This document shows, one piece after another, positions 1,405 to 63,873 of a DNA stretch of 64,000 nucleotides. How positions within the stretch are numbered: the stretch's first letter is position 1; the number at the start of each line of letters is the position of its first letter. Below the pieces are notes generated by a model that did not search any database, had not been told where the DNA came from, and saw only the letters and a program-made list of their open reading frames with translations. Origin of the DNA: Octopus vulgaris (lineage: Eukaryota). The stretch covers positions 64,914,001 through 64,978,000 of the forward strand of contig OX597819.1 in NCBI GenBank assembly GCA_951406725.2. Direction: 5' to 3'. Made by a program: the position numbers and the translations under genes.

Positions 1405-1808
1405 ATATAAATGGAAAATGTCAAGGGAGGAAATGCTAAAATAATATAACGAAAAACATTTTAGTAACGGTTTCGGTCACTGAGACATTTTCAACTCTAA
1501 GTGTTGAAAACAATTAAATTTGTGAAAAATTAAATGAAAAGTTCCTGTCTGTCTCTATCTCTCTTGTTTACTCGTGTGGGTTCATGGTGGTACCAACAAG
1601 ACTAAACAAGAGAGACAGAAACAAGAAAAATGCCCATTGTATTTGAATACTATGCAAATATTATTTTTAAAATCTTTGCATTAATTTTTTCCCAAATTTA
1701 ATTCTTTTCCGTACTTAGAATAGAAAAAAGTCTCAATGGCCGAAGCTGGTAGTAAGATGTTTTTCATAAAATTATTTTAGCAATCTCTACTATGACTTTT
1801 TCCATATA
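1405..1808. mobile_element. Fold-back element with a decayed hammerhead-like core in each arm
   Basis: About 1405-1540 is inverted relative to about 1675-1808. Minus strand at 1461-1500 reads TTGAAAA T GTC TCAGT GACC GAA ACCGTT A CTAA. Confidence 0.5.
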
Positions 1809-1825
1809 TATATATATATACATAT

Positions 1826-2057
1826 ATAAACTTAGATAAACTTAGATATGTTTCGACCAAAGATTGATCCAGGCCATGTCTAACTTAATAGCACCACCTG
1901 ATAGGATTATTCGAATCCTGTTTAAGTCAAGTTTTGTTTAAGTTAAGTTTTATTCAAGTAGTGAGTTCTTGTTGGGTGAGTTGTATCCAATTATGGGTGG
2001 CTTATCTGGTATTCTTTGAAGGAATCTATCCAGACTCTGTTTAAAGTTGATGGGATA
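1826..2057 (-). mobile_element. 3' fragment of the same LINE family
   Basis: Reverse complement closely matches about 35772-36030, including the tail repeat; also abuts (TA)n. Confidence 0.9.
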
Positions 2058-2071
2058 TATAAATAAATATA

Positions 2072-2328
2072 AGGGCGCGGGCCTCTAACCCTAAGATTCC
2101 GAGTTCAGTTTCAGGCAGTGCCTTCGAGGATGATGGAAGCATCAACAAAAAATACCTTAGGAACGTGCACCCAAAGCCGGGATCGAAATTTCACCAGAAT
2201 CTATGATGAAGGCTGAGAATAAATCAACCGAAACTTTGTGGTAACAACAAAGAAAATGAGGATACATCTGTCCAATGCAAATATTGTAAATAATGTACAG
2301 AACTCCTCATCTCTAAACTATAGAACAG
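2072..2328 (+). mobile_element. tRNA-head SINE-like element with a hammerhead-bearing tail
   Basis: tRNA-like head GGCGCGGGCCTCTAACCCTAAGATTCCGAGTTCAGTTTC, then ATGATGAAGGCTGAGAATAAATCAACCGAAAC and the tail shared with 6990-7160 and 63740-63873. Confidence 0.6.
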
Positions 2329-61559: not shown

Positions 61560-61863
61560 GATCACCGTGACCGACCAGGATATCAGATGTTGCTACATAT
61601 CGCTGGTCACAATGCGCTTCGCATTGTTTTAGCCTTCAAATGCCGCCACATCACTGGATAAGCGAGCAGGCCAACAGAAGAAAGAATGAAAGAAAGTTGC
61701 AGCGAAAGAGTACAGCAGGGATCGCCACCACCCGCTGCAGGAGCCGCGTGGAGCTTTAGGTGTTTTCGTTCAATAAACACTCACAACGCCCGGTCTGGGA
61801 ATCGAAACCGCGATCCTACGACCGCGTGTCCGCTGCCCTAACCACTGGGCCATTGCGCCTCCA
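61560..61863 (-). mobile_element. tRNA-derived SINE family C
   Basis: Minus strand GGAGGCGCAATGGCCCAGTGGTTAGGGCAGCGGAC...GGTTTCGATTCCCAGACC with clear A and B boxes. Relatives at 39343-39640 (+), 49876-50240 (-) and about 108-350 (+). Confidence 0.8.
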
Positions 61864-63347
61864 CACACACACACACACACACACACACACATATATATAT
61901 ATATATATATATATATATATAATGCGTGTGTATGCATACACACATACATACACACGCACACACAATAAAGGGATAAGCGGTTCTTCTTGCGGTAAGTTGA
62001 ATTCTCACTGCACCTATATACCTGTACTAACGTCAATTAACAAGCCATGTGAATTTATTGGTTTAGAACTCAGCCGCTTAAAGCTACAGACATGAGAGAA
62101 AATATTAATGGATAATGAAACAGAACGAATCGAGATCAATTAAGAATGTTTTTTTTTTTACAACATAATGGAAAGTTAGGCCGATGATTTCCTGTCGACG
62201 TCATCGTTTGGGATGCAATATCTGCGGTGTTAATTCTACCCTCTTATGACAAGTTGTGTTCTGTTATAGTTCCGATTTCATGAAGACCTTTTAAACTAAA
62301 CGAAGTGAATCAGCGGAGGTTCAATACACTGTAACTTATAAATGTATTGGTACGGTGGCGACTTTTATTGATGTGTATCCAGTATGTTGCCTGGTTTGGA
62401 AGATAATTCGACACCACGATTAAGGGAATCTTTCGGTGACCAACTTCATTCATGATTTCTTCTTTACAAGTAACAAATCAGTCTTAGATTTCGCGACACA
62501 TTCATAACTGCTATAATCTCTCACATATATAAGTACGCTCTATCAACATATATACACTGGAGAATTTTATGACATGAAGAAATCAACGGTTAAGGATTTA
62601 CTTCTTGGGCTTTGGTTGAATTATGGACCTTATTAATTACTAGTTTAGTACTTTGAAGAAGAAATATCGATACACAAATATTCTATGCTCTTCGGATTCC
62701 CGTAAAATATTACTTCCCTTTTCGTCAAAAAATACATATCTTGGTGTTGACCGAAAGCTAACAGTATTCGGGCTATTTAAATACTATTTAAAAGTATTTG
62801 AGCTTCTACAATTTAAATGGTAGTAACGAAGCAACCCCAGTTAAAGAGTCTTCTACTTATTCAGACCTCTAAATATTTCCAACTCAGAATATCATTTATG
62901 GAATGTTGTTACATAAAGAGATTAAACTGTAACTTACATTTTTGAAGGTCACATGTAATGTGCGAATCAATAAACGTTTTAGAGAAACTATATTAATTTC
63001 GTTAATTGTAATACTCGCAGGACATTTCTATCGGAAATAAATACATCGACTAGAAAAAGAATCAAGTAAAATGCTGTTAATTATGAACATTCAATAAATG
63101 AATTGTATTGAGATGTGATTCACAGTAGTGTGACCTTGTGGTTTTTCGTTATATTTATTACATCTAAGATAATCCAGGGCACATTCCATGAAAATTTGTA
63201 TGCATATGTGAAACTGTGAAAGAATGGACTCATTTGTAGCTGTGCTTCTCAACCACATAGTTACAGGTTCGGTCGCACTGCGTAGCACCTTCGCTTGGTA
63301 TATTCTACGATAACCTTCTAATAGATATGTGTATATATATATGTGTA

Positions 63348-63578
63348 AGGCGGCGAGCTGGCAGAAACGTTAGCACGCCGGGCGCAATGCTTAACCGTAT
63401 TTCGCCTGCCGTTACGTCCTGAGTTCAAGTTCCTTCGAAGTCGACTTTACATTTCATTCTTTTGGCATCGATTAAATAAGTACCAGTTACGCACTGGGGT
63501 CGATATAATCGGCTTAATGCGTTTGTCTGTCCTTGTTTGTTCTCTCTGTGTTTAGCCCCTTCTGGGTAGTAAAGAAAT
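63348..63578 (+). mobile_element. SINE family B monomer
   Basis: Full head and one unit. Other copies or fragments at about 3345-3525 (-), 10737-10820, 47625-47760 and 55430-55560. Confidence 0.8.
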
Positions 63579-63828
63579 GTATATATTTATACATGTGTGC
63601 TTTTGTATTTGTGTGTGAATGTGAGGGCGTGTGCTTATTTGTGTGTGTATAAATATTTGTGTGTGTGTGTATGTCCGTATGAGCGCGTGTGTTGTATAAT
63701 CTATATGTGCATATTTATATATATATCAGTGGCAACTTGCATTATTTCAAGCAATTTTATTCTGCATTATTTACATTTTTTACATTATTTTCATTTGACG
63801 GATATTTGTCCCCATCGTGTGTGTTGTT

Positions 63829-63873
63829 AACACAACGTTTCGGTTGATATACCCCCAGCCTTCATCAGGTGCC
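63829..63873 (-). ncRNA. Minimal hammerhead motif
   Basis: Minus strand GGCAC CTGATGA A GGCTG GGGGTATAT CAACC GAA ACGT T^ GTGTT; extra A after A9; palindromic ACGT. Confidence 0.6.

What the first reader, a model, noticed from the sequence alone, without database searches (positions are those of the whole stretch)
1405..63873. Many unrelated short fold-back elements share a minimal hammerhead ribozyme with palindromic helix III
Seen: at least six families with otherwise different sequence (1461, 2204/7075/63829, 4007/24143/28953, 30063, 31817, 40660/41026) carry helix I - YUGANRA - helix II - GAAA - short palindrome - UH - helix I'. The palindrome differs between families (ATTGGTCCAAT, ACAGCTGT, ACTAGT, ACGT), as do helices I and II, which suggests conserved structure rather than copied sequence. 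Most sit in or next to (TA)n, several with an inverted copy of their own tail. Established: Penelope-like elements (PLEs) carry such minimal type-I HHRs in their pseudo-LTRs, are proposed to cleave as dimers, and often have inverted 5' pLTRs. Inference: a dense population of non-coding, ribozyme-bearing PLE derivatives (retrozyme-like) that may produce self-cleaved or circular RNAs and favour TA microsatellites.
Basis: partly seen in the sequence, partly recalled or inferred. Interest (0 to 1): 0.8.

Follow-up and report, generated by a model that had tools for sequence, protein, structure and literature searches.

The report
Penelope retroelement ends carrying minimal hammerheads
These are mostly decayed, cut-short end pieces of Penelope-like jumping genes that still carry the small self-cutting RNA motif already known from such elements, so the finding is largely ordinary, apart from one family that seems to have gained a tRNA-like promoter and to travel as a SINE.

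Summary
The motifs are real. A scored minimal-hammerhead scan gives 6 hits at 8.5 or more, against a mean of 0.4 in 200 shuffles; none reached 6. They match the published minimal type-I hammerhead of Penelope-like elements (PLEs; Cervera and de la Pena 2014) feature by feature. Six families hold up. Only 3 of the 11 named sites keep core, palindrome and helix I together, and 28953 lacks the core and is a separate family. The elements carry PLE insertion marks: 5' truncation, inverted copies at 3 loci, two alternative 3' ends in 4 families, and 3' ends near (TA)n (11 of 12, p about 2e-5). No PLE ORF remnant was found and no head-to-tail hammerhead array, so 'retrozymes making circular RNA' is not supported. 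Best reading: fossil 3' ends of PLE insertions. One lead is less ordinary. Family A (2204/7075/63829) has a tRNA-like head beside 2 of its 3 copies and no T4 terminator on its sense strand, suggesting a PLE-mobilised SINE. Verdict: new members of a known kind.

The parts
1381..1541 (-). Family F, inverted 5'-truncated arm; its 3' end runs about 25 nt beyond that of the other arm and abuts (TA)n 1291-1379
1465..1494 (-). Family F minimal hammerhead, U3-A8 core; palindrome and helix II broken in this copy but complete in the family majority (ACCGGT); helix I weak (2 bp, 2x2 loop, 2 bp)
1542..1811 (+). Family F longer arm with degenerate hammerhead 1721-1751; a pyrimidine tract and AG lie directly before the core; 3' end on (TA)n
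   Evidence: (opposite-strand joints 1541/1667-1672)
2066..2125 (+). Family A tRNA-like head (degenerate B box; start with an A-box-like motif seen in loose ends of other copies)
   Evidence: table 7; box consensus recalled
2126..2327 (+). Family A linker, hammerhead 2203-2237 (C3 lost in this copy; intact core in 30 contigs of run X3) and 3' tail ending at a (TATC)n tract
3901..4113 (-). Family B copy, (TA)n at both ends; hammerhead 4004-4029 with core intact, palindrome and helix I decayed
6990..7165 (-). Family A copy truncated in the linker and joined to another SINE; hammerhead 7082-7117, core and helix II intact, palindrome broken
24075..24290 (+). Family B copy, (TA)n at both ends; hammerhead 24150-24175, helix I 5 bp, palindrome one base short
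28862..29560 (-). Family C element (5' limit approximate); hammerhead-like remnant 28955-28982 with helix I, ACGT and GAAA but no intact core; 3' end on (TA)n
29769..29844 (-). Family D inverted 5'-truncated piece, 86% identical to 30185-30260
29843..30345 (+). Family D: about 33 nt direct copy of the 3' end (29843-29875), then a roughly 470-nt ORF-less unit ending on (TA)n; defect-free hammerhead 30069-30116, predicted cut after 30116
31750..32570 (-). Family G element (limits approximate); hammerhead 31821-31860, palindrome ACAGCTGT, 7-bp helix II, C3-A8 mismatch
40431..40920 (.). Family E fold-back: left arm 40431-40708 (-) with hammerhead 40665-40695 (U3-A8, ACTAGT); right arm 40708-40920 (+) starts just downstream of the cut site
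40990..41236 (+). Family E second insertion, hammerhead 41032-41062 (U4 changed); 3' end about 55 nt shorter than the other two arms, on (TA)n
63767..63876 (-). Family A inverted 5'-truncated arm, hammerhead 63834-63868 (intact core, ACGT, helix I 5 bp); 3' end about 30 nt shorter than the other two A copies
63877..64000 (+). Family A tRNA-like head with an intact B-box motif, then (AAT)n to the window end; joined head-to-head to the inverted arm
36532..36564 (+). Uncertain extra site (U3-A8 core, AGCGCT), mirrored at 33371-33402 (-) in a 94% identical inverted duplication; its score of 7.0 is within the range of chance

Best explanation
The elements are 3' (pseudo-LTR) ends of several Penelope-like retrotransposon families and their non-coding derivatives, inserted long ago and decaying. 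How they arose is inferred from known PLE biochemistry. A PLE RT/GIY-YIG protein encoded elsewhere nicks TA- or AT-rich DNA and starts reverse transcription at one of two internal sites downstream of the hammerhead. It usually stops after 100-800 nt and sometimes adds an inverted second copy. The hammerhead lies just upstream of the start sites, so it is the part most often left behind. In the parent RNA the palindrome lets two motifs pair into a shared helix III, giving slow, dimer- or protein-assisted cleavage that is not needed for insertion. Shown here: motif, enrichment, family structure, truncation, inversion, two 3' ends, TA bias. Inferred: the enzyme, cleavage, and inactivity of the mutated copies.
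For: Enrichment over shuffles. Match to the published consensus, including the unpaired base after A9, the G10.1-C11.1 pair, the palindrome, the U3-A8 core variant, a U-rich 5' flank, and solo or opposite-strand copies 100-700 bp apart. Helices I and II and the palindrome differ between families yet pair. Majority letters from contigs of other copies restore family F's palindrome (3 of 3 pairs in both arms) and helix II (4 of 4), and show family A's intact core. Two 3' ends in families A (about 30 nt), F (about 25), E (about 55) and D (about 85) recall the PLE 'tail'. Inversion joints vary among other copies of F (table 5). TA bias is one-sided. Family A's core plus helix II pattern found 71 metagenome loci; 40 of 54 distinct ones have a palindrome the pattern did not ask for, and 10 of 71 have a PLE-like RT/GIY-YIG match ending 103-305 nt upstream on the same strand (the query ORFs came from 5 of these 10 loci; Pfam GIY-YIG scores were below the curated cut-off). 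Self-duplex energies of the intact palindromes: -1.7 to -11.1 kcal/mol.
Against: No PLE protein remnant in the window: 150 of 281 candidate frames scanned with Pfam gave no GIY-YIG, and tblastn with 22 ORFs from the metagenome loci gave best E 0.058. No family is therefore tied to a PLE ORF directly. The metagenome loci share only the motif, not flanking homology. Tails of 55 and 85 nt exceed the published 30-40 bp. Family F's helix I is weak even in the majority (4 of 6 positions). Families D and G are single copies here. Most monomers do not fold as hammerheads by minimum free energy, which is expected for minimal motifs but is no support. Family A does not end on (TA)n.
Confidence: 0.85

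Rival explanations
1. Active non-LTR retrozymes: short ORF-less units transcribed as multimers, self-cleaved to monomers and circularised.
For: Family D has a direct copy of its own 3' end about 470 nt upstream, as if a short unit had been read more than once, and its hammerhead has no defect. Both B copies are 213-216 nt with 5' ends within about 22 nt of each other. A 2026 preprint links retrozymes to pLTRs and counts monomer derivatives.
Against: No tandem array overlaps any hammerhead (150 of 151 rows shown). Paired motifs are on opposite strands. 8 of 11 sites are damaged. No element end coincides with a predicted cut site, although one E arm starts a few bases downstream of it. The D repeat may equally be a second insertion beside an older truncated one. 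In the preprint 8 of 9 tested dimers did not cleave.
Confidence: 0.12
2. Family A only: an ordinary LINE-mobilised tRNA SINE that once captured a pLTR piece, or a SINE that landed beside pLTR remnants; the hammerhead is a passenger and no PLE enzyme is involved.
For: The head is followed by (AAT)n in 45 contigs of run X3, like a free-standing short SINE (table 7). The short 3' end has a roughly 9-nt tandem repeat as LINE-type tails do. Only one full head-to-tail copy lies in the window.
Against: Both heads in the window lie within 150 nt of a family-A hammerhead (chance about 2e-4, a post hoc test). The sense strand has 0 runs of T4 in 617 nt, whereas families B-G have 1-15 per copy. The two 3' ends and the head-to-head inversion at 63876 are PLE-type marks.
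Confidence: 0.3
3. Fold-back DNA transposons (MITE-like) in which hammerhead-like strings are incidental.
For: Three loci have long inverted arms in TA tracts, and several other fold-backs without a hammerhead occur in the window.
Against: Arms are unequal, truncated at variable points and differ by a tail; 7 loci have no second arm; the motif keeps a fixed polarity to the TA-abutting end.
Confidence: 0.03
4. Chance matches in AT-rich, repeat-rich DNA.
For: At scores near 6.5-7 shuffles give 1.6 hits per window, so single weak sites such as 36532 cannot be told from chance; the strict descriptor finds only 2 sites.
Against: 0 of 200 shuffles reach the observed counts; majority letters move towards the ideal motif.
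Confidence: 0.02

Closest known systems
Minimal type-I hammerheads in the pseudo-LTRs of metazoan Penelope-like elements (Cervera and de la Pena 2014, PMC4209133)
   Same: Core with C3-G8 or U3-A8, extra base after A9, G10.1-C11.1, palindromic helix III, short helix I, many families per genome, mostly solo truncated copies, some opposite-strand pairs 100-700 bp apart.
   Different: A different host (no octopus mention in the supplement text searched; supplement file 1 not searchable). No ORF-linked copy in this window. Families G and the uncertain 36532 site have an extra A before GAAA.
PLE insertion anatomy (Craig et al. 2021, PMC8557442; Frangieh et al. 2024, PMC11167929)
   Same: 5' truncation, inverted 5' copy, 3' extension at one end only, microsatellite or AT-rich targets, no clear target-site duplication.
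   Different: Extensions here are about 25-85 nt against 30-40; no ORF; clade not assignable.
Non-LTR retrozymes of animals (Cervera and de la Pena 2020, PMC7229834; Li, Clavereau and Pollet 2026, bioRxiv 10.64898/2026.07.22.740005)
   Same: ORF-less, 200-500 nt, type-I hammerhead, PLE-related.
   Different: No head-to-tail arrays, minimal rather than canonical motifs, no evidence of circles.
Schistosoma SM-alpha SINE-like repeats (Pol III promoter plus hammerhead; seen only as described in the review PMC6765202)
   Same: For family A: a Pol III-type head and a hammerhead in one short non-coding unit.
   Different: SM-alpha occurs in tandem repeats and, per Cervera 2014, schistosome repeats carry canonical hammerheads; family A is dispersed, has the minimal PLE-type motif and shows PLE-type tail and inversion.

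Membership tests
PLE minimal type-I hammerhead | Core CUGANGA or the U3-A8 variant, plus GAAA and NUH | tested here: met
   Core intact in 7 of 11 named sites, covering families A, B, D, E, F; not in the single copies of G and C
PLE minimal type-I hammerhead | Palindromic positions 15-16 / loop 3 | tested here: met
   Perfect in D, G, both E, A63868 and C; restored in F by majority letters; broken in both B copies and two A copies
PLE minimal type-I hammerhead | Helix I of 3-5 bp and helix II opening with G10.1-C11.1, often after one unpaired base | tested here: met
   A, B, D, E met; G and F deviate at 10.1-11.1; F helix I weak
PLE minimal type-I hammerhead | Self-cleavage as a dimer or with protein help | not testable with these tools
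   Only duplex energies computed
Penelope-like element (autonomous) | RT plus GIY-YIG ORF upstream of the hammerhead | tested here: not met
   None in the window; these copies are not autonomous elements
PLE-mobilised insertion | 5' truncation with an inverted 5' copy | tested here: met
   Loci F, D, E; A63868 inverted against the head; variable joints in other F copies
PLE-mobilised insertion | 3' 'tail' present in only some copies | tested here: met
   Four families, about 25-85 nt, from 2-3 copies each
PLE-mobilised insertion | Microsatellite or AT-rich target at the 3' end | tested here: met
   11 of 12 within 300 nt downstream, 3 of 12 upstream; family A is not directly on (TA)n
PLE-mobilised insertion | 3' region homologous to a resident autonomous PLE | not testable with these tools
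   No host genome held
Non-LTR retrozyme | Two or more consecutive head-to-tail units, each with a hammerhead | tested here: not met
   No tandem repeat overlaps a hammerhead; D has only a partial repeat
Non-LTR retrozyme | Abundant linear and circular monomer RNA | not testable with these tools
   Only contigs could be laid
tRNA-derived SINE (family A) | A and B boxes of a type-2 Pol III promoter at the 5' end | tested here: inconclusive
   B-box motif intact at 63915-63923, one insertion in the 2204 copy; A-box-like start only in loose-end letters; ARAGORN and Rfam found no tRNA match; box consensus recalled
tRNA-derived SINE (family A) | No Pol III terminator (T4 or more) inside the unit | tested here: met
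   0 runs in 617 nt over 4 segments
tRNA-derived SINE (family A) | Head, body and 3' end form one unit in most copies | tested here: inconclusive
   One complete copy, one head-adjacent copy cut by the window end, one truncated copy

The most novel reading that the evidence does not exclude
Family A is a tRNA-headed, Pol III-transcribed SINE whose body is a PLE pseudo-LTR with its minimal hammerhead, and which is copied by a Penelope-like enzyme rather than a LINE: a PLE-dependent SINE that needs no tandem copy for a promoter. I found no such element described in four literature searches (listings only; Repbase/Dfam entries and most subscription journals were not searchable). A smaller side lead: in family F the core follows a 3' splice-site-like sequence and helix I is weak, so splicing may complete the ribozyme, as noted for D. 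virilis Penelope.
Probability: 0.4. Interest if true: 0.5.

Novelty: new member of a known kind. Interest (0 to 1): 0.3.

Why it matters
As it stands, it extends a published observation to another animal genome: roughly one PLE hammerhead remnant per 5-6 kb in this window, invisible to Rfam, and usable as a tag to reclassify 'unknown' or 'SINE' repeats as PLE-derived. If family A is a PLE-mobilised SINE, it would show that PLE enzymes carry Pol III parasites as LINEs do. It would also give a short, abundant natural substrate for mapping what a PLE enzyme needs in its RNA and whether the hammerhead is kept when the ORF is gone, which is an open question.

Tried and rejected
Whole-genome family consensi: no genome is held. 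Rfam, window and three local scans: no hammerhead or tRNA hit in what was listed. ARAGORN: 0 genes. Search for sequencing runs with 1630-2330: no RNA holder listed; one run guessed to be RNA was laid, but contigs cannot show expression or ends, and summed depth is no copy number, so neither is used as evidence. Patterns for families D and A in viral and prokaryote genome collections: 0 hits in 4 scans. A chance open frame across family A's head and linker, used to look for stray gene calls in other copies: 3 unrelated repetitive proteins and no hit. Earlier findings by place and by sequence: none. Rejected: 28953 as a member of the 4007/24143 family; 28953 as an intact hammerhead; the CR1/L2-like 3' stem-loop at about 1840-1880 and 35980-36010 as a hammerhead (GAAA and a hairpin, no core); weak scan hits at 8585, 14398, 22891 and 60668 (chance range). 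No covariance model was built: the available training set was selected on family A's helix II and would be circular. Luense et al. on dimer cleavage (PMC5785218) is not held; I saw it only as cited in PMC6765202.
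Full report
Setting. The window is AT-rich (35% GC), full of microsatellites (151 tandem rows) and repeat fragments, with no host gene recognised. 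Its SINEs look like those of octopod cephalopods; that label is recalled and comes from no call. No genome is held, so evidence from outside the window comes from contigs of four public runs laid on 1385-2328 and from a metagenome pattern scan.

Is the motif there? Yes, but fewer copies are intact than stated. Of the 11 named sites, 3 keep core, palindrome and helix I (30069+, 63868-, 40695-). Four keep the core but have a broken palindrome (7117-, 24150+, 4029-, 1494-). Four have core changes (2203+, 31860-, 41032+, 28982-). The 28953 element is not homologous to 4007/24143 by BLAST. A scored descriptor gives 2, 4, 6 and 12 hits at scores of 12, 10, 8.5 and 6.5 or more; 200 block dinucleotide shuffles average 0.015, 0.16, 0.4 and 1.6 and none reaches the observed counts; the reversed window gives 0, 1, 1, 3. 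The scoring was written after I had seen some sites. A stricter descriptor built on the published features, also written after the sites had been seen, finds only 2 sites with at most 2 defects; 0 of 100 shuffles reach 2 when a palindrome of 4 nt or more is required, 4 of 100 otherwise. Rfam lists no hammerhead among the 150 of 317 hits shown or in three local scans.

Structure rather than copied sequence. Helix I, helix II and the palindrome differ between families A (ACGT), D (ATTGGTCCAAT), E (ACTAGT), F and G (ACAGCTGT) and still pair. Both core types occur, C3-G8 in A, B, D and U3-A8 in E and F. For F and A, contigs from other copies show which letters are decay. Taking the majority letter, F's palindrome pairs 3 of 3 in both arms (window: 2 and 1) and helix II 4 of 4 (window: 3), while helix I stays at 4 of 6 (one search showed 40 variant rows and hid 32). 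Thirty contigs of run X3 carry an intact core upstream of 2215 (table 7). As an outside test, family A's core and helix II found 71 metagenome loci. Of 54 distinct ones, 40 have a palindrome after GAAA and 12 also a helix I of 4 bp or more, neither asked for; by arithmetic under 10% would be palindromic by chance. Ten of the 71 have a PLE-like protein match ending 103-305 nt upstream on the same strand (queries came from five of the ten), and six ORFs score for GIY-YIG below Pfam's cut-off. These loci share only the motif with the window, so they show what the motif marks, not descent.

Anatomy. An inverted copy of the element's own sequence is present at three loci (F, D, E), not at the other seven. 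Other F copies invert at other points (table 5). Four families show two 3' ends: A about 30 nt apart, F about 25, E about 55, D about 85. (TA)n lies within 300 nt downstream of 11 of 12 cores against 31% of random positions (p 2e-5), but upstream of only 3 of 12, so the bias belongs to the 3' end. Family A is the exception and ends on (TATC)n or plain AT-rich DNA. No PLE protein remnant was found: 150 of 281 candidate frames scanned with Pfam gave one LINE-type RT and transposase pieces but no GIY-YIG, and tblastn with 22 ORFs from the metagenome loci gave nothing better than E 0.058. No tandem array overlaps a hammerhead. At D, 29843-29875 repeats the 3' end 30298-30345. This fits a roughly 470-nt unit read past its start, or a second insertion beside an older one.

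How it most likely works. Shown: motif, families, truncation, inversion, two 3' ends, TA bias. From the literature: a PLE protein nicks AT-rich DNA and begins reverse transcription at two internal sites, which explains the optional tail; its hammerhead cleaves only with the protein and is not needed for insertion in vitro (PMC11167929, parts 1-2 of 4 read). Minimal hammerheads do not cleave as monomers and cleave weakly as dimers (PMC4209133, parts 1-2 of 4 read). Inferred: each locus is the short product of such an insertion, keeping the hammerhead because it lies just upstream of the start sites. The palindromes could form the shared helix III of a dimer (-1.7 to -11.1 kcal/mol for the intact ones), but paired motifs here lie on opposite strands and most copies are damaged, so little cleavage is expected from these loci.

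Comparison with what is known. The 2014 paper describes this motif with the same features, many families per genome, mostly single copies attributed to truncated PLEs, and opposite-strand pairs 100-700 bp apart. Its supplementary consensus matches (passages, part 1 of 3 of file 2; file 1 could not be searched and may bear on which hosts were covered). Inverted 5' copies, tails and microsatellite bias are described for PLEs (PMC8557442, passages and section 15; PMC8969392, passages). Penelope repeats are reported as abundant in octopus genomes (PMC8967140, passages), relevant only if my host label is right. Non-LTR retrozymes are defined by head-to-tail units (PMC7229834, passages; bioRxiv 10.64898/2026.07.22.740005, parts 1-3 of 5, supplements closed); that test is not met. 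A search for Penelope-like, hammerhead and octopus together returned only PMC8557442. The giant-squid genome paper mentions only 235 Rfam hammerhead hits (PMC6962438, passages).

The less ordinary lead. Family A's 2204 copy begins with a tRNA-like head, followed by a linker, the hammerhead and the tail on one strand. The only other head in the window is joined head-to-head to the inverted A arm at 63876 and runs into (AAT)n at the window end. Both heads lying within 150 nt of an A hammerhead has a chance of about 2e-4 (post hoc). The sense strand has no T4 run in 617 nt, whereas families B-G have 1-15 per copy (the uncertain 36532 element also has none). Against: ARAGORN and Rfam do not recognise the head, only one copy is complete, and in other copies the head ends in (AAT)n like a free SINE. 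The nearest described case is the Pol III plus hammerhead SM-alpha repeat of schistosomes (review PMC6765202, passages). Four searches showed no PLE-mobilised SINE in their listings.

Verdict. Observation partly confirmed; interpretation partly supported. New members of a known kind, interest 0.3. The PLE-dependent SINE reading for family A has a probability of about 0.4 and would merit about 0.5.

Noticed in passing
window 30826-31220 (+), 45660-46006 (-), 51728-52306 (+): A tRNA-headed SINE forms partial tandems of about 171-184 nt in which each extra unit re-enters at the same point about 50 nt into the head, at three independent loci (4 re-entries). This suggests a fixed template jump or a circular template.
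   Followed up: partly
window 34541-36031 (+); second 3' end at about 1812-2056 (-): 5'-truncated CR1/L2-like LINE: RT fragment (Pfam RVT_1 E 7e-19) broken by stops, 3' stem-loop ending in GAAA and an 11-nt terminal repeat; no hammerhead core.
   Followed up: partly
window 33230-33580 and 36354-36663: 94% identical inverted duplication flanking the LINE; it carries a hammerhead-like string (U3-A8 core, AGCGCT) whose score is within chance range.
   Followed up: partly
window 4218-4485, 8858-8971, 24304-24450, 24781-25064, 47959-48060, 19020-20089: Further fold-backs without a hammerhead core, several ending on microsatellites; 24304-24450 has GAAA plus a near-palindrome at its centre. They may be PLE ends truncated below the ribozyme, or hammerhead-less Naiad-type ends.
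   Followed up: no
window 1690-1720 (+) and 24110-24145 (+): Pyrimidine tract plus AG directly before the core (family F) or before helix I (family B), like the intron end reported next to the D. virilis Penelope hammerhead.
   Followed up: partly
window 12299-13200 (-) and 13272-14430 (+): Two decayed Tc1/mariner-type transposase remnants (Pfam Transposase_1 E 3e-20; HTH_32 E 1e-6).
   Followed up: no
window 42150-43199: Two copies of a SINE in inverted orientation about 600 nt apart, 90-93% identical arms.
   Followed up: no
window 41310-41660 and 48380-48720: Other repeat-like elements next to (TA)n with GAAA-flanked hairpins; 41400-41420 (-) has a CUGAAGA string but no acceptable helix II.
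   Followed up: no
L040:3-2621, L021, L010, L038, L019; L068, L008; L051, L018, L053: Metagenome contigs with near-intact PLE ORFs beside minimal hammerheads; L040 has an ORF on each side of the motif (tandem PLE); L068's protein has a cysteine-rich linker before the GIY-YIG domain (Neptune-like, label recalled).
   Followed up: partly
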